From Octopus vulgaris (lineage: Eukaryota): a stretch of 64,000 bases of DNA. Numbering within the stretch: position 1 is the stretch's first letter; the number at the start of each line of letters is the position of its first letter. A program made the translations under genes and the position numbers. The stretch is taken from the NCBI GenBank assembly GCA_951406725.2, contig OX597840.1, positions 38,192,001-38,256,000 on the forward strand, read 5' to 3'. Below the pieces are notes generated by a model. That model worked only from the letters and a program-made list of their open reading frames with translations, was not told where the DNA came from and ran no database searches. This document shows, in pieces, positions 5,353 through 46,199 of the stretch.

Positions 5353-5463
5353 TATTTATATACACACACTTATTATAGTTCTATGTTTAAGAGATGAGGA
5401 ATAATGAACATTCTTTACGTTATTTATATTCAACAGATATTTGTCTTCATCTTGTTTGTTATT

Positions 5464-5509
5464 AACACAACGTTTCCACTGATATACCATCCAGCCTTCA
5501 TCAGGTGTC
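5464..5509 (-). ncRNA. Minimal hammerhead in PLE-derived short element (5375-5540)
   Basis: Minus strand: GACAC|CUGAUGA|aggcug..cagug|GAAACGUU|GUGUU. Confidence 0.75.
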
Positions 5510-5573
5510 TTGGGAAAAATTGGAACCTGCGTTCTCATTCATGTTGTTGTTGTTATTATTATCATTATGATTA

Positions 5574-9770: not shown

Positions 9771-10564
9771 TATATACACACCAACTCACCAGTATGTATA
9801 TATATGTATGTGTATATATTATGTATGAATGTATGTTTGGTTAAGAATTTCCAAACTCTGTATTGCGTTAAAAAAAACCCATAACTATGAAATAAAGACA
9901 GTTGTTGTTGTTGTTGTTTTTTTCTTCCATTTTTGCATTCATTTTCCTGCTTCAACAAAGTTGAATGTTTTGACTCTGATCAAGTTACATTTCGACTTTC
10001 TTTTTTTCTTGCTTGTTTCATTTCTTTTTATTCTTACGTATTTACATCATTTTTGAATTGTGATGACAGATAAGATACCTCCTGACCTTTCTTTATGTTT
10101 TTCTCGTTGTTGTTGTTACTCAAATACAAAAGATATGTCAATTTGCGAATGATTCCCAATATTTCTCCAAAGAAATTTCCTACCATAACGCAAAATATAT
10201 ATCACCTATGGCGAAATCACTTTCTTTTCTTATTCGTTTTCTTTTTTTAAATAACGAACAGAAGAATTTTGATATAAATATTTCTTGCTATTTCAATGCT
10301 TTAATAGAAAAACAGTATGGAATGTATGTGCATATATTTTAGAGAATATACAGTTTTCGGGAAAAAATTCTTTAGTATACTTAGAAATTCATAACAGAAG
10401 TCCAGGTCCATTTCACTTGGAATATTGCGGCACTGTCTTAGTACATTTACAATGTCTACTCTCGGATTGATTTGCTCTTTGAAAAGCTGGAAGTCAAATC
10501 TAAGATTCTCCTATGTGGACACTGGGTACACACATACATACCCCCACATATATATGTATATATA

Positions 10565-11720
10565 TGATAGAAATATATTACAAAAAGAAAATAGAAACTA
10601 CACGTGGAAATGTAAGGGGAAAGTAAGAAGAAAAAATAAGGCGAAAATTCACATTGGAAATCAAAAACAATGTAAAGGCATTTATTGACAAGTAACGATA
10701 CATATATACAATTAGATGAAATGAGATAGGAATAAAAGTAATGTCATTATTGTGAATTGCTAGAGAGATTTAAAAGCATACCGGTTTCGTCAAATTATTG
10801 ATCACTGCTTTGACTGCTCACCGATAACCGAACGGTGTCGGGTCTGCTAGACCATGAGTGAAATGATTATGTGTAAGGGAGACATGTAGTTCTGGATCTG
10901 GTGCAATTATGGTAGATATAATATTGTAATGTGAATGGTGTATGAGATGTATGGATGGTATTAATTGAAAGGTTAGTGGTGTTATGTATTAAGTTATGGG
11001 TTGATATTGAGTTGTGGTAGTTATTTATTGATGAAAGTTGCTTCTTTATTCATTCTTTGCTGTACTGAGGTATTCTGTGAACATTGATAGAATGGAAAAA
11101 TTAGGAACTTGGGATTAAGGTTCCTAGCACACCTTTCTATGTGTCCACTGACCTGTAACTGTCCCTATTGTGAGTGGCGGATTTGTCCTTTGTGAAGATC
11201 GCGGAGTGATATTCCTCTTTGGGCCATATAATAATTACAACACCCTAAGCATGTAATGGCATGGATTAGATTTTCCGAGGCACAGGTGAAAGATACTGGA
11301 AATAATTGTGCCAAATTATTTTATCCCGTGTTCTTATTCAGCAAATACGGTTCACATTTGAGCGGTGGGCATATTTCGCTCTACATCCAACTGCTTCGAC
11401 GTCTTCCTAATGACATGAATCAGATATCGCCATGAGGAGTTCAACTTCCAACAGTCAATAATTTCTACTTCACACCTCTTCTTTAGAGATACGACCCTGG
11501 GGTTGATTTCATTTATGATAACCTTAGATTTAGTTCGGATTTTAGAACCTTAATTCCATGAAAATCCTCTTTAGTGAGATTCTGGGTTTTTTTAAAATCC
11601 TTTTTAATTTCGTCAAGTTTCAGTATTCAAAGATACAAATATATGCTACTTCGACATTTCAGGATTTTTATATTCTCGCCATCAGATTGATCTATTGCAT
11701 CACTTTTTATGAGTTTTCTC
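10565..11720 (-). mobile_element. Decayed PLE 3' part (GIY-YIG remnant plus pLTR with hammerhead)
   Basis: Minus strand ~11292-11220 reads FTCASENLIHAITCLGCCNYYI, matching MNCKSRNLIYCIKCPNCEEIYVG of the intact PLE; ends at a TA repeat; 5' boundary uncertain. Confidence 0.7.
10775..10825 (-). ncRNA. Hammerhead with G3-C8 swapped core
   Basis: Minus strand: aucg|GUGAGCA|GUCAAA..UUUGAC|GAA-ACCGGU-A|ugcu; lies downstream of a decayed GIY-YIG. Confidence 0.65.
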
Positions 11721-20249: not shown

Positions 20250-20294
20250 TGAACCCGAAGATTGCAGAATTCAATGCATGAAAGTACTAGTTCA
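20250..20294 (+). ncRNA. Minimal type I hammerhead ribozyme (U4C core variant) in 5' pLTR
   Basis: UGAAC|CCGAAGA|u-UGCA-gaauucaa-UGCA-u|GAA-AGUACU (palindrome)-A|GUUCA. Confidence 0.8.
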
Positions 20295-20499
20295 ATCAGA
20301 ATGAATATTTAACATTCTACTATTTCATTTTATTTTACTCAATTATAATATATTATCTTATAATATATCATTATAAGATTGTAAATAAAACGTGAAAATC
20401 AGACAAGGTTGGAATTCTTTTTATTAATATATTCTTCTATACACAATCACACACACCCATATATATATATATCTATATTCCTATTGTGTATATGCCAAC

Positions 20500-21792
20500 A
20501 TGTCTGGAAAGCAACAAACAAAATTAACAGAATCCGAAAGAATTCTAATGGAAATTTCATCGAAATTATCAACACTCATCACGATGATTGACACACAATC
20601 CTCTATTTTAAAGGAAATAGAAAAACAGTCTACAGACGGAAAACTTGGAAATGAACACATAAACTCTGAAATTAAGAATTTAGCTGAAATGATACCAACA
20701 ATTATAAAATCTACAAGAGAAAGCCTACCACAACCTCCTTGGATGTCAGAAATAAACGAAAGAAATCTGGAAAAAGAGGCACACCGAAAAAGAGAAGAGA
20801 TACAGAAGACATGGAAAAAACTCCTTAACATAAGAAAACAAAACTTCTGGAAGGCATATAAATGCGAAAAATATGCTGAAATACATTCGAAATGGATATC
20901 TTTAGCGGCACCCATACTTCCTCGGAAGTACCTAATTAAAGAAATTGCAGGAGAACCAGAGGAAGAAACTAAACTTCGATGGGACCTTAGTTTGATAAAA
21001 TTCAGGACCGACATCTCCATTACCCTGTCTAAACAATCCCGCTACAAAGCCAAATACGAAGCTATCGATGATCAAATCAGAGATGAAATATCCAAACTAA
21101 CGACCGGCAATATAGCAGAAAAAATGCGAGAACTATGGATCAGAGATATCTCAAAAGAAGAAAGCAGATCAAGAAAGTTTTGGCAGCGGAAACAATTATT
21201 TCTCGACAAATATGCTACAAATTACGGTAAAGACACCAGAACTCCGAGAAATAGCATTAAAAGTGGACAACCTCACCAACGCAACATACACCAGAACACG
21301 TGGCAACATGAACACCCGTTTCACCACGAATCGAAGACGAACTACGGTAAGAACTCTTCCCATTTTGTATGCAAACACCCTAATGCACACAACATGAACA
21401 AAAATCACAAACAAAATAGATATTGTTTTGAACAAACCATTAGCAGTAGAGATAACAGGAGATCATTTTCAAGACCTCAACAGAGATTACCCACAAGAAA
21501 CTGGACAAAAAACCGATCTAGATCTAGAAGTAAACCCAGATCATTTCTCCAGGTGGTTAAAAACAATGCTAACAAGAAATTGAAAAGTAGCATACATAAT
21601 ACCAAAAACAAGACAGAAAACATAACGAAACCAAGTAAAGTACCACAACCAAAACGCAAAATTCATCAAGCAAACATCAACAGGAATATAAATCATAACC
21701 AGAAAAAAATCCATTTTTTTACGTCAGGACAACAAACACCGGAGAAAGAAAAAATCCAAGAGGAAACATACCCCAAACAACTGAACGTATAG
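20500..21792 (+). CDS. PLE ORF1, 430 aa: helical/coiled-coil-like N-half, basic low-complexity RS-containing C-half
   Basis: Long complex ORF starting (ccaacATG) just after the 5' pLTR; K/E/L-rich N-half; RSRSRSKPR and K/R/N/Q-rich C-half. Confidence 0.85.
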   Translation: MSGKQQTKLTESERILMEISSKLSTLITMIDTQSSILKEIEKQSTDGKLGNEHINSEIKNLAEMIPTIIKSTRESLPQPPWMSEINERNLEKEAHRKREEIQKTWKKLLNIRKQNFWKAYKCEKYAEIHSKWISLAAPILPRKYLIKEIAGEPEEETKLRWDLSLIKFRTDISITLSKQSRYKAKYEAIDDQIRDEISKLTTGNIAEKMRELWIRDISKEESRSRKFWQRKQLFLDKYATNYGKDTRTPRNSIKSGQPHQRNIHQNTWQHEHPFHHESKTNYGKNSSHFVCKHPNAHNMNKNHKQNRYCFEQTISSRDNRRSFSRPQQRLPTRNWTKNRSRSRSKPRSFLQVVKNNANKKLKSSIHNTKNKTENITKPSKVPQPKRKIHQANINRNINHNQKKIHFFTSGQQTPEKEKIQEETYPKQLNV

Positions 21793-24026
21793 ATCCTAAA
21801 ATAATTAATTTATCAAAAAGAGATCTTGACAATGATGAAATCCAACTTCTGTCAAAAGGACTGAAATTCACACCTACACCAACAGCCAACCACCAAGAAT
21901 TAAAGGAGGATATCCAAAAATTCTGTCGAAAATTACGACTTGTAGAATTCTTCGCTAACAAAAGTAATGAGATTGATGAATCCCTAGTAAGGAATAAATC
22001 AAATTTCACCCCACCAAAAGGAAGAAATAACTACCTTGACCAATACATTGATATCCTGTCTAAATTTCCCCTTAGACGCAATACCAATGTTAGGCCAAAC
22101 ATTAGCAAATCAGAGATGTCTGCATGTAAACGTATACAAAACGATCAAACAATAATAATTAAACAAGCAGATAAAGGTGGTGCAATTGTTATTATGGATA
22201 CCGAATACTATAAGGATTTGGTTGAAGACCAACTGAAGGATACAACCTTCTATTGTGAAATACCCGCAAATATAGACCACCACATCATGAAAAAGATCAA
22301 CAACCTGATTTCAACACACCACAACTCACTTACGGATAATGAAAAAGACTACATCACCAATTTTGAACCAAAACCCAGCAACTTCTACGGCTTACCAAAA
22401 ATACACAAATCAAAAAACATTCAACAGGCAGTAAAAGAACAAGAAAGTGAGTACATAAAATTATTACATCCAAAAGACCTAAAACTTAGACCTATTATAG
22501 CTGGTCCAGCATGCCCTACACACCGTCTAAGCAATTTTATTGACATTGTTTTGAAACCACTATGTACTTACATACCGAGTTTCATCAGGGATGACATCGA
22601 CTTCCTGTCCCATCTTCCCAAAACAACAGAAACAAATTCAGTTTTGCTAAGTTTTGATGTGGTAAGCCTCTACACCAATATTCCACACGATTTAGGAATA
22701 AAGGCGATTAAATACTGGTTAGAAAAACATAGAGAAGTGATTCCCAGCAGATTCACAGTGCCATTTATATTAGACACAGTCAAACTTATTCTAGAAAATA
22801 ACACATTCTTCTTCAATGGAAAGAATTACATCCAAATTAGAGGCACGGCGATGGGAACGAGGTTTGCTCCCGTTTACGCCAACTCTGTAATGGGATACTT
22901 AGAAGAACAACTCTACCAAGAGGTGGAGGTAAACTATGGCACTGGATTTAGAAAGTATATTGAAAAGGCATGGAAGAGATACCTAGACGACTGTTTCATA
23001 ATCTGGACAGAATCTCTAAATACTCTGGAAGAGTTCAATATCCTCCTGAACAACCTACACCCATCTCTCAAATTTACAAAGGAGATGAGTAGTACCAAAT
23101 TACCATTCCTGGATATAATGGTAATTAAAAAAGACACCACCATCACCACAGATATATACTATAAACACACAGACACACATCCATACCTAAATTTTAAGTC
23201 GTGCCATCCACCACATACAAAACGTAACATCCCATACTGCCTAGCCAGAAGAATTTGTACTATTGTAGAAGATGCAAATATCAGGAACAAACGCCTAATA
23301 GAACTAAGAGAATTTTTGCTCAAACAAAAATACCCATCTCTACTTATAGAAAATGGCATACAGCGGGCTATAAAAATACCTATACAACAACTTAGGACAA
23401 CCCAAGGAAGAGGAAAACAAGAACAAGTCATACCATTCATAGTGACCCACAACCCATGTCACCAGAATATCTTCAACATTGCCAAAGCAAACCTTCCAAT
23501 CATTGCCCAAAGTAATGAATTAAAAGACATAATCAAGGATCGAGCTATGGTGCTTAGTAAAAGACAGCCTAAAAACTTGAAAACATTACTAACAAAGGCA
23601 AAATTTGACCTCAGCAACAAAGACCAAACATTCACGGTATTTAAATGCAATGATAGCCGATGTGGCACATGCCAATTCATACATACCGGTCAATATATAA
23701 ACACAAAAACCGGGAAAATATTCACAAACGCGAATATGAACTGCAAAAGCAGAAATTTAATTTACTGCATCAAATGCCCAAATTGTGAAGAAATATATGT
23801 AGGTCAGACGGGAAACGCACTATTAGAACGCTCACGTGTACACCGGCAACAGATTAGAGACCCAGAGGTCCGTCAGATACCTTTGAGTAACAACCTAGCA
23901 ACATGTGGTCGGAAAATATATATAATATTTCCATTCTACAAATTACACAGCCCAAGTGAAATCGAGAGGAAAATCAGAGAAAAGAATTTTATTGATAAAT
24001 TCGAACCCAAGCTAAATAAGCAATAA
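21699..24026 (+). CDS. PLE ORF2: reverse transcriptase, Cys-rich linker, GIY-YIG endonuclease (frame open from 21699; first ATG 22116)
   Basis: KIINLS..LLSKGLKFTP upstream of the first ATG; KQADKGGAIV, FYGLPKIHK, LRPII, SFDVVSLYTNIP, GTAMGTRFAP, RYLDDCF, LPFLD, SCHPPH; CNDSRCGTC; NLIYCIKCPNCEEIYVGQT..R..H..E..N. Confidence 0.95.
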   Translation, partial: PEKNPFFYVRTTNTGERKNPRGNIPQTTERIDPKIINLSKRDLDNDEIQLLSKGLKFTPTPTANHQELKEDIQKFCRKLRLVEFFANKSNEIDESLVRNKSNFTPPKGRNNYLDQYIDILSKFPLRRNTNVRPNISKSEMSACKRIQNDQTIIIKQADKGGAIVIMDTEYYKDLVEDQLKDTTFYCEIPANIDHHIMKKINNLISTHHNSLTDNEKDYITNFEPKPSNFYGLPKIHKSKNIQQAVKEQESEYIKLLHPKDLKLRPIIAGPACPTHRLSNFIDIVLKPLCTYIPSFIRDDIDFLSHLPKTTETNSVLLSFDVVSLYTNIPHDLGIKAIKYWLEKHREVIPSRFTVPFILDTVKLILENNTFFFNGKNYIQIRGTAMGTRFAPVYANSVMGYLEEQLYQEVEVNYGTGFRKYIEKAWKRYLDDCFIIWTESLNTLEEFNILLNNLHPSLKFTKEMSSTKLPFLDIMVIKKDTTITTDIYYKHTDTHPYLNFKSCHPPHTKRNIPYCLARRICTIVEDANIRNKRLIELREFLLKQKYPSLLIENGIQRAIKIPIQQLRTTQGRGKQEQVIPFIVTHNPCHQNIFNIAKANLPIIAQSNELKDIIKDRAMVLSKRQPKNLKTLLTKAKFDLSNKDQTFTVFKCNDSRCGTCQFIHTGQYINTKTGKIFTNANMNCKSRNLIYCIKCPNCEEIYVGQTGNALLERSRVHRQQIRDPEVRQIPLSNNLATCGRKIYIIFPFYKLHSPSEIERKIREKNFIDKFEPKLNKQ

Positions 24027-24215
24027 TAATAATACTTAGCGATATTACTTCCACTGCTACGACCATGACCACTAACAACAACAACAATACTAAAGGTGAT
24101 CAAGACGAAGATAGCAGGAAAATTATCTTATTTAGGGTTAAAAGTTATATTGCCACCACCATCACCACTAGCAACAATAATTAAGGTGCTGACAATGATG
24201 ATGATGACAATTGAA

Positions 24216-24747
24216 ATATAAAAATATAAAAATCTCTGACAAAGGATATTTACAACATTTCTAAAAATAACCCAACAATTGCTGCTTCGGCCAGGGTCAA
24301 GATACAGGACTCTTGACCTGTCCAACAAAGCGTGATGCCTAAACCAATCAGCTCAACCAACCAATCAGCTTAAGTAATTGAGTGATACTACACACTGATT
24401 GGTCAGAATACAGTTTGCAAAACCTAGCACTCTGGAGCCTACCCAGCTGTATTTATAGCACAGAATCACTCATCTTGCTACAGTCAAAAATTGTGAAGCA
24501 TGACTGTCAACACTACTACATGAACCCGAAGATTGCAGAATTCAATGCATGAAAGTACTAGTTCAATCAGAATGAATATTTAACATTCTACTATTTCATT
24601 TTATTTTACTCAATTATAATATATTATCTTATAATATATCATTATAAGATTGTAAATAAAACGTGAAAATCAGACAAGGTTGGAATTCTTTTTATTAATA
24701 TATTCTTCTATACACAATCACACACACCCATATATATATATCTATAT
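24216..24747 (+). repeat. 3' pseudo-LTR of PLE
   Basis: Direct copy of 19945-20478, runs into (TA)n. Confidence 0.95.
24521..24565 (+). ncRNA. Minimal type I hammerhead ribozyme (U4C core variant) in 3' pLTR
   Basis: Identical to 20250-20294. Confidence 0.8.
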
Positions 24748-44624: not shown

Positions 44625-45590
44625 GTGTATATGTTTATATATATAGGGAGAGAGAGGATGTGACGCTAAATTGTCGCCATTTTAAATTTAGTGCACGTGC
44701 ACTGTTTGATTTTGGATTTTGTCGACAACACAGAATAGTAGAGTCAGTTGGGCACCGTCTGTGACAAAATATTCACCGTGACGCAGTTCACTTTGGCAGA
44801 ACTTTGGCCTTTGCGCCGGAGATTCCAATACGAACATTTCAGAGTGTTTGGGTGTCAATCTGAGGGCGGTGAAGGGAATTCAGAAAGAGTTAGATACGTC
44901 TTATTGTTATTACGAATGTGTTTGGATCGATGACAAGTGACTTCTACTTTATGCCTGCATTCATTTTCCTACACGGCTTCAGACTCAACACGGAGGTCTA
45001 CATCAAGTGCTTGGAGGAGATAGTGCTGACCTCGGTCAAGGGAGGGACTACTGGAACACCCGATGTCAGGCTGCAGGACTCTAGACCATGACACACAGGC
45101 AAGAAAACCCAATCATAGGTAGCCGGACAATTTCTGCGACCAGAGCAAACCTAACATCTGGCCACCTAACTCCTCGGACTGCAATCTCCTCGAGGATTAT
45201 GTGTTAGGCACAGTTGAACGAGGGAACTAGAAATCACCTTGTAACACCAAAGATGAACTGAAAGTAAGGATTATTGCAGCATCCACCAACTTAAACAAGG
45301 AGGTTGTCAAGGATGGTTGCAAAAGTCGTCTGTCGGCCATGGTTTCAAGCCAAAAGCAGTTTCATTGAACGAATATACTCTATAGCATTTCAAGATATGT
45401 TTATGCAATTTTAGTACATATAACAGTTAAAATGAGATGTCAGTACTATTTTCGGAGATGTACTTGCATAGCGAGTGACTTGTTCTCAGTTCGTGTGCTG
45501 AAACGAAAACAATTGAAGCGTGGAAGGTGTTTGTAAGCCATTTAAGAAACACACAAAAGCCGTTCGATTTACTTCAATATTTAAGTTTAA

Positions 45591-45641
45591 TTTGTCAAAA
45601 TATTTTCGTCGCTATAAGACCGCGACCTGTTCACTGACAAA
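45591..45641 (-). ncRNA. Hammerhead with G3-C8 swapped core, left arm of palindromic element
   Basis: Minus strand: UUUGUCA|GUGAACA-g|GUCGC-ggucuuaua-GCGAC|GAA-AAUAUU-U|UGACAAA. Confidence 0.75.
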
Positions 45642-45671
45642 AGTCCGTGCAAAAAAGATACAGCACGGATT

Positions 45672-45722
45672 TTTGTCAGTGAACAGGTCTCGGTCTTATA
45701 GCGACGAAAATATTTTGACAAA
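45672..45722 (+). ncRNA. Hammerhead with G3-C8 swapped core, right arm of palindromic element
   Basis: Same as 45591-45641 with one stem II mismatch (GUCUC). Confidence 0.7.
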
Positions 45723-46199
45723 TTAAACTTAAATGTTGAAGTGAATCGAACGGCTTTTGTGTGTTTCTTAAATGGCTTACAAACACCTTCCACGTTGCAA
45801 TTGAGTACTATTTTCATATTTGCGTTAGTTAGACGGCAATTTGTTCACCACGCCCTGTATATATATGTTACGAAGTGGTGTGGTGTATGGCATTGCTTCT
45901 TGGGCACCGTGATGGTGGTAATACTGTTCTTGTAGAGGCATGAGGTATATCGTCGGTGAGAACATTTATAGGCTCCTTGTTGTGCGCAGCTGGGAGCTGC
46001 GAAGCTTCTAACAATGCAATTTCTAAGATTCCTATCTTTTCTAAAAAAGCAGGAGAGGCGGTGTAGAAAAAGATAGGGGCGGTTGGTGAGACAAATGCGA
46101 GAGCTTTGGGTGAGTTTGTCCTACTTGCCGCATAACCATCCTGTGCCTCGTATGTACGTTTATGTATATTTGAAAGTAAACATATATATATATATAGTG

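What the first reader, a model, noticed from the sequence alone, without database searches (positions are those of the whole stretch)
10775..10825. Second, unrelated PLE family with the same G3-C8 hammerhead core
Seen: GUGAGCA core, 6-bp stem II GUCAAA/UUUGAC and GAA-ACCGGU-A, downstream of a decayed GIY-YIG on the same strand. The stems share no sequence with the 45591 motif. Inference: two separate families with the same double change argue for selected covariation over decay, and the GIY-YIG remnant ties the variant to PLEs. Stem I is imperfect in this copy.
Basis: partly seen in the sequence, partly recalled or inferred. Interest (0 to 1): 0.7.

Follow-up and report, generated by a model that had tools for sequence, protein, structure and literature searches.

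The report
Swapped-core hammerhead in Penelope-like retrotransposon
This stretch is a broken copy of a jumping gene whose tail carries a hammerhead-shaped, likely self-cutting RNA in which a central base pair is flipped from the usual C-G to G-C, and in most sister copies to A-U, so standard searches would miss such RNAs.

Summary
The family's hammerhead lies 16 nt further on: core GUGAUCA (10805-10799), short stem II, palindrome ACCGGU, cut predicted after 10779, and a good stem I (94.9% of cells paired). It is still G3-C8, and within the family it covaries: of the first 100 of 186 pattern matches, 84 are A3-U8, 11 G3-C8, 5 mismatched, none C3-G8. The element is a Neptune/Nematis-type Penelope-like retrotransposon; this copy is truncated with stem II broken. 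The 45.6-kb motif is a separate G3-C8 repeat with no open frame found, so independence is unproven. Related elements carry U3-A8 and C3-G8. Natural U3-A8 and engineered G3-C8 are published; I found no natural G3-C8 or A3-U8, but four key papers were not held. Cleavage is untested. The scan noted purine-3 hammerheads before, on other DNA of this genome (e1-9866753).

The parts
10548..11291 (-). 5'-truncated, decayed copy of a Penelope-like element (family A): end of the GIY-YIG frame, 3' UTR and terminal repeat
   Evidence: Extent shared with many genomic copies; 9.2% diverged from the family majority against a mean of 5-6%; other copies continue upstream into RT
11006..11281 (-). Decayed GIY-YIG endonuclease remnant, two internal stops
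   Evidence: (E 1.4e-10 to the intact window PLE protein)
10815..10821 (-).
10816..10829 (-). Upstream arm (ATCGGT-G-YGC in the family) that can pair with ACCGGT in cis; predicted alternative type III fold with G17 at 10819, or an inhibitory helix
   Evidence: Folding only; no compensatory change seen
10806..10815 (-). Stem I, 5' arm (family ATTCAAAGCA; one change in this copy)
10799..10805 (-). Hammerhead core positions 3-9, GTGATCA (G3 at 10805, C8 at 10800); ATGATTA in the A3-U8 subfamilies
10789..10798 (-). Stem II (family GTAA-TT-TTAC, 3-4 bp); broken in this copy at 10798 and 10791
   Evidence: G at 10798 in 45 of 50 other copies, T at 10791 in 48 of 50
10780..10788 (-). G12-A13-A14 and palindromic stem III ACCGGT (predicted dimer helix)
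10768..10779 (-). A17 (10779; predicted cut on its 3' side) and stem I 3' arm
   Evidence: cleavage not tested
45591..45641 (-). Family B hammerhead (GTGAACA, one inserted G, 5-bp stem II, AATATT, U17, 7-bp stem I), the comparison motif
45672..45722 (+). Inverted second copy of the family B hammerhead

Best explanation
This is a decayed copy of the 3' end of a Penelope-like retrotransposon whose family carries a hammerhead-shaped RNA with core pair 3-8 as G-C or A-U instead of C-G, and that RNA likely cleaves itself as a dimer. Shown: the element, the conserved core, stems I and II, the palindrome, and the two paired states. Inferred: in transcripts with two terminal repeats the ACCGGU palindromes pair to build stem III; position 8 acts through its 2'-OH and needs only to be held by a Watson-Crick pair to position 3, so G3-C8 is tolerated; the cut would fall after GUA (10779) and trim multimeric transcripts, possibly slowly and with help from the element's protein. 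A source element later changed G3-C8 to A3-U8 and kept spreading, which points to selection on the pair. This particular copy has lost stem II and is probably inactive.
For: Family register pairs 94.9% of cells; pair 3-8 is GC 17, AU 14, other 1 of 32 (I picked 33 of 59 loci to include both states). A pattern with N at 3 and 8 gives 186 matches against 0 for the reversed control; first 100 rows: AU 84, GC 11, AG 2, AC 2, UC 1, CG 0, GU 0 (my count). The two groups differ in majority base at only 10 of 730 columns, two of which are 3 and 8; given a change at 3, a complementary change at 8 by chance is about 1 in 100 (my arithmetic, post hoc). With columns 3 and 8 removed, 13 of 14 A3-U8 copies sit in one subgroup nested among G3-C8 copies (weak support). 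A3-U8 lineages went on to change loop II and an indel in stem I while the other core positions stayed. Contigs of four runs from three coded organisms show only the A3 and U8 letters as alternatives at these places. RT, CX4CxxC linker and GIY-YIG lie upstream in other copies. Literature passages: C3G/G8C partly restores cleavage in a PLE hammerhead (PMC11167929); the G:C swap is the one rescued double mutant in a full pairwise scan (PMC9901934); the 2'-OH of position 8 is the acid (PMC11300833); palindromic dimers are typical of PLE hammerheads (PMC4209133).
Against: No cleavage data. The covariation is probably one evolutionary event copied many times, so the Fisher value overstates it, and the tree needs 4 label changes, not 1. 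In PMC9901934 all other core double mutants, which would include A3-U8, had low activity in a type III construct. Only 1 of 33 alignments in a sample chosen by downstream sequence begins at the predicted cut, while 13 begin 8-29 nt upstream of the core, so mostly uncut RNA was copied; PMC11167929 likewise found cleavage unnecessary in vitro. One late A3-U8 subfamily has an A-C mismatch in stem II. The sister family D reads GCA instead of GAA in 26 of 28 copies yet has intact frames, so relatives may spread with a crippled core. Monomer folding does not favour the type I stem I (mean probability 0.28-0.38).
Confidence: 0.68

Rival explanations
1. The 3-8 pair is kept for the fold, for example as a shape recognised by the element's RT or as the boundary of the terminal repeat, while cleavage is negligible or dispensable.
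For: 13 of 33 alignments start just upstream of an uncut core and 1 at the cut; family D has A13C and a weak stem I; family C has U4C and a U-U closing of stem II; HHR mutants did not affect insertion in vitro (PMC11167929).
Against: The 3-8 pair forms in the catalytically arranged core (PMC3884650 introduction), and family A keeps every other core base, a non-G base at 17 and the palindrome.
Confidence: 0.17
2. The same core works as a monomeric type III hammerhead cutting after G at 10819: upstream ATCGGT pairs with ACCGGT, TGC/GCA closes stem I, and a purine at 3 avoids the C3-G17 trap.
For: Minimum-energy fold of a natural A3-U8 copy is this junction; G at 10819 in 44 of 48 copies; stem I of this fold is more complete in A3-U8 copies (2.89 of 3 pairs against 2.41); C3-G17 trapping, and a G3-C8 variant more active with G17, are stated in PMC3884650 (the latter as data not shown); 2 of 33 alignments begin at 10819-10818.
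Against: Ensemble probabilities only 0.13-0.37; no compensatory change in the upstream arm; about half of the G3-C8 copies have a C-A mismatch at 1.1; I saw no such arm in family B (G3-C8, U17) or family D; copy starts are spread on both sides of 10819.
Confidence: 0.1
3. The double change is neutral drift in one source element of a family whose ribozyme was already dead.
For: One event; both changes are transitions; no activity data.
Against: Two of 10 group differences in 730 columns hit exactly 3 and 8 and stay complementary; four repeat families in this genome each keep a Watson-Crick 3-8 pair, in four different states.
Confidence: 0.04
4. The first reader's register (GUGAGCA with 6-bp stem II) is a functional, selected ribozyme.
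For: In this copy alone the 6-bp stem II forms in the minimum-energy fold.
Against: Unique to one decayed copy; stem I only 4 of 7 pairs; fails on the family alignment; its letters are replaced in most contigs of four runs.
Confidence: 0.01

Closest known systems
Minimal and palindromic type I hammerheads of metazoan PLEs (Cervera and De la Pena 2014, PMC4209133; main text parts 1-2 of 4, supplement file 2 parts 1-2 of 3 read)
   Same: In the terminal repeat, downstream of RT and GIY-YIG, sense strand; type I; short palindromic stem III for dimers; G10.1-C11.1; natural covariation at 3-8 is reported there (U3-A8 in Schistosoma).
   Different: Position 3 is a purine (G3-C8, A3-U8). All 56 rows of their Fig. 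S3 have C3 (53) or U3 (3), though their descriptors could not find purines. Family A lacks the extra base after A9 and has a 3-4 bp stem II and longer stem I.
Natural core variants of Perreault et al. 2011 (PMC3088659; passages and section 8 read)
   Same: Covariation of the 3-8 pair in nature; short stem II; weak palindromic stem III.
   Different: Only U3-A8 is named in the text read; figures and supplements not seen.
Engineered C3G/G8C hammerheads (PMC11167929, PMC9901934, PMC8495972; passages read)
   Same: Same G3-C8 pair; partly active, including in a Poseidon PLE hammerhead.
   Different: Laboratory mutants, not natural families; A3-U8 not shown active in those passages.
Neptune/Nematis PLE clades (Craig et al. 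2021, PMC8557442; passages read)
   Same: RT followed by CX2-5CxxC linker and C-terminal GIY-YIG with internal cysteines; inverted partial copies; TA-rich flanks; hammerhead near the 3' end.
   Different: Clade not placed by a tree with named references; described there as having canonical hammerheads.

Membership tests
Hammerhead ribozyme | Core U4 G5 A6, A9, G12 A13 A14, A15.1-U16.1, non-G at 17 | tested here: met
   Each present in 48-50 of 50 other family copies, and in the window copy
Hammerhead ribozyme | Canonical identity C3 and G8 | tested here: not met
   0 of 51 aligned copies and 0 of 100 listed matches; no Rfam hammerhead match in 10700-10900 or in 8 A3-U8 loci
Hammerhead ribozyme | Watson-Crick pair between 3 and 8 | tested here: met
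   31 of 32 distinct rows; 95 of 100
Hammerhead ribozyme | Three helices around the core | tested here: met
   Family: stem I 94%, stem II 94% of cells paired, palindromic stem III. In the window copy stem II is broken.
Hammerhead ribozyme | Site-specific self-cleavage | not testable with these tools
   Only contigs were available; copy ends give little support
EN+ Penelope-like element (family A) | RT followed by C-terminal GIY-YIG endonuclease | tested here: met
   Frames in L002, L004, L019, L024, L046; 44% and 60% identical to intact relatives C and D, which score RVT_1/GIY-YIG in Pfam. The family A fragments themselves had no Pfam hit (0 of 4).
EN+ Penelope-like element (family A) | Terminal repeat with hammerhead, solo and inverted partial copies | tested here: met
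   a full-length family A copy with two repeats was not recovered
Neptune/Nematis clade | CX2-5CxxC linker before GIY-YIG plus cysteines inside it | tested here: met
   CGRPNCGTC and CLGC in translated copies; feature from PMC8557442
Neptune clade specifically | Placement in an RT tree with named references | not tested
PLE (family B, 45.6 kb) | Linked RT/GIY-YIG frame | tested here: inconclusive
   None joined to the repeat in 65 loci searched with one Neptune-like protein; it behaves as a roughly 200-bp solo or inverted repeat

The most novel reading that the evidence does not exclude
One genome's Penelope-like elements use all four Watson-Crick pairs at hammerhead positions 3-8, and in this family the purine at 3 enables a two-way ribozyme: one core that cuts after GUA as a dimer or after GUG (G17) as a self-contained type III monomer, which would be a natural G17 hammerhead made possible by a core swap.
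Probability: 0.12. Interest if true: 0.78.

Novelty: new variant of a known kind. Interest (0 to 1): 0.5.

Why it matters
Hammerhead searches fix C3 and G8 (sometimes U3-A8), so purine-3 families are invisible to them: here 8347 matches to a G3-C8 descriptor against 207 for the control, and no Rfam hammerhead hit. A natural G3-C8 to A3-U8 switch inside one transposing lineage is evolutionary evidence that the pair, not the base identity, is what matters, which so far rests mainly on mutants and on U3-A8. It also gives a ready natural series (C-G, U-A, G-C, A-U) for the open question of whether PLE hammerheads need to cleave at all.

Tried and rejected
Rfam: window-wide scan was swamped by TA-repeat microRNA models (150 of 486 rows shown); local scans gave no hammerhead. 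Pfam on 4 family A fragments: 0 hits. Search for an open frame belonging to family B: none in 65 loci; the frame near it in L153 belongs to family D and is separated by simple repeats. Expression: no RNA holder listed, so nothing is concluded; contigs cannot show cleavage ends. Copy 5' ends as a footprint of cleavage: 1 of 33 at the type I site, 2 of 33 at the G17 site, inconclusive. Protein search of 1.84 billion representatives gave many unnamed relatives and no clade name. No genome-wide count was made for a C3-G8 descriptor; canonical families were seen only in sampled loci. Literature searches for natural G3-C8 or A3-U8: searches found none; Lunse 2017, Arkhipova 2017, Przybilski and Hammann 2007 and Martick and Scott 2006 were not held, and supplements of PMC3088659, PMC8557442 and file 1 of PMC4209133 were not seen, so the novelty claim is provisional. 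R-scape was not available.

Full report
Observation. On the minus strand the window reads GTGAGCA, GTCAAA...TTTGAC, GAA, ACCGGT, A at 10821-10779, about 200 nt downstream of a decayed GIY-YIG frame (11281-11006). The stretch belongs to a dispersed repeat in a 2.8-Gb genome (1001 candidates, 40 scored, best other hit 88%). The window copy spans 10548-11291. The host looks like an octopus from genome size and repeat content and from earlier notes; I did not test this.

The register is wrong. A pattern for this version with one mismatch allowed finds only this place. On alignment A1 (33 of the 59 loci, chosen to include both states) that structure pairs 71.3% of cells, like shuffles. A second register pairs 94.9% (0 of 500 shuffles as high, a control that ignores kinship): stem I ATTCAAAGCA/TGCTTT-T-GAAT, core GTGATCA at 10805-10799, stem II GTA(A)/(T)TAC, GAA, palindrome ACCGGT, A17 at 10779. 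In the window copy this stem II is broken at 10798 and 10791, so the copy itself is probably inactive.

The core pair covaries. In the true register position 3 is still G and 8 is C, but many copies have A and U. Patterns with N at both places gave 29, 38 and 186 matches against 0 in reversed controls. Of the first 100 rows I count A-U 84, G-C 11, A-G 2, A-C 2, U-C 1, and no C-G or G-U; two G-U copies appeared in another sample. The G-C and A-U groups differ in majority base at 10 of 730 columns, including 3 and 8. With those two columns removed, 13 of 14 A-U copies fall in one subgroup nested among G-C copies, though the tree needs 4 label changes and most forks are weak (38 of 51 copies with at least 300 aligned bases). 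I read this as one compensated switch from G3-C8 to A3-U8 in a source element, followed by further spread and loop II changes. It is one event, so copy counts are not independent evidence. Contigs from four runs of three coded organisms show the same two alternative letters and no others at 10% or more.

The element. Other copies continue upstream into RT, a CX4CxxC linker and GIY-YIG, the anatomy given for Neptune and Nematis PLEs (PMC8557442, passages). Family A fragments had no Pfam hit, but they are 44% and 60% identical to two intact relatives, whose proteins score GIY-YIG above its cut-off, and RVT_1 just under it for family C. Family C, present in this window (775-aa frame 21699-24026; at least 150 copies at 99%), is flanked at 20255 and 24526 by a hammerhead with C3-G8 and U4C. 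Family D carries U3-A8, a 4-bp stem II and the same ACCGGT-A, but GCA for GAA in 26 of 28 copies shown and a weak stem I (28 of 30 loci). Canonical C3-G8 motifs also occur (window 5504 and sampled loci), so the swap is family-specific.

The 45.6-kb motif (family B) is a young repeat of about 200 bp, often in inverted pairs: 4048 exact matches, and 97 of the first 100 are G3-C8; no alternative letter at 3% or more at 3 or 8 in four runs. It makes up about 98 of the first 100 of the 8347 matches to a generic G3-C8 descriptor (control 207). The A3-U8 descriptor gave 483 against 275. B shares no DNA similarity with A, but I found no frame joined to it in 65 loci, so whether G3-C8 arose twice is open.

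Mechanism. Most likely two terminal repeats pair through ACCGGU to complete stem III and cleave after GUA, as proposed for PLE hammerheads (PMC4209133). Position 8 acts through its 2'-OH while paired to position 3 (PMC11300833), and the G3-C8 swap partly rescues activity, also in a PLE hammerhead (PMC11167929; PMC9901934). Against a need for cleavage: in 30 loci chosen by downstream sequence only, 13 of 33 alignments begin 8-29 nt upstream of the core and 1 at the predicted cut; core double mutants other than the G:C swap had low activity in PMC9901934; family D spreads with A13C. A bolder option: upstream ATCGGT can pair with ACCGGT in cis, giving a type III fold with G17. A purine at 3 would avoid the C3-G17 trap described in PMC3884650. 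Folding probabilities are only 0.13-0.37, no compensatory change supports it, and I saw no such arm in B or D, so I give it about 10%.

Known and new. PLE hammerheads, natural U3-A8 (PMC3088659 section 8; PMC4209133) and engineered G3-C8 are in print. All 56 rows of the 2014 alignment have C3 or U3. Eight searches showed no natural G3-C8 or A3-U8, but four relevant papers were not held and several supplements were not seen. PMC6765202, PMC6155905, PMC10085705, PMC8495972 (passages) and bioRxiv 10.64898/2026.07.22.740005 (part 1 of 5 and a term search) added no such report.

Noticed in passing
window 20250-24565 (+): Complete young Neptune-like PLE: terminal repeats about 4.27 kb apart, each with a hammerhead that has U4C and a U-U closing of stem II; a 454-aa frame (20428-21792, no Pfam hit) overlaps the 775-aa RT/GIY-YIG frame in another phase, although PLEs are described with a single ORF.
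   Followed up: partly
L160-L188, about 900-1070 nt after the endonuclease match: Family D PLE keeps a hammerhead-like motif with U3-A8 but GCA in place of GAA in 26 of 28 copies, while 784-aa frames are intact.
   Followed up: partly
window 5455-5515 (-): Canonical C3-G8 minimal hammerhead of another repeat family (ACGT palindrome), also in L130 and L131.
   Followed up: no
L220-L223, near the centre: Repeat with an A3-U8 core in which ACAGA after GAA can pair with upstream TCTGT, followed by G and only 4 nt before the core: another possible purine-3/G17 arrangement lacking stem I.
   Followed up: no
L226-L228, near the centre: Repeat with ATGATTA core, long stem II and an upstream GTCC/GGAC hairpin; possible type III A3-U8 hammerhead with one extra base.
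   Followed up: no
L192, L195, L207, L214, L215, L219: An A3-U8 subfamily has a roughly 23-nt duplication of the stem I arm and part of the core; several of these copies also shortened the 3' arm so that stem I still pairs.
   Followed up: partly
window 45450-45803: Family B head-to-head inverted pair forming a long hairpin; thousands of copies, many beside TA repeats, no partner frame found.
   Followed up: partly
window 28556 (+): Possible decayed minimal hammerhead with U3-G8 and ACGT palindrome, weak stem I.
   Followed up: no
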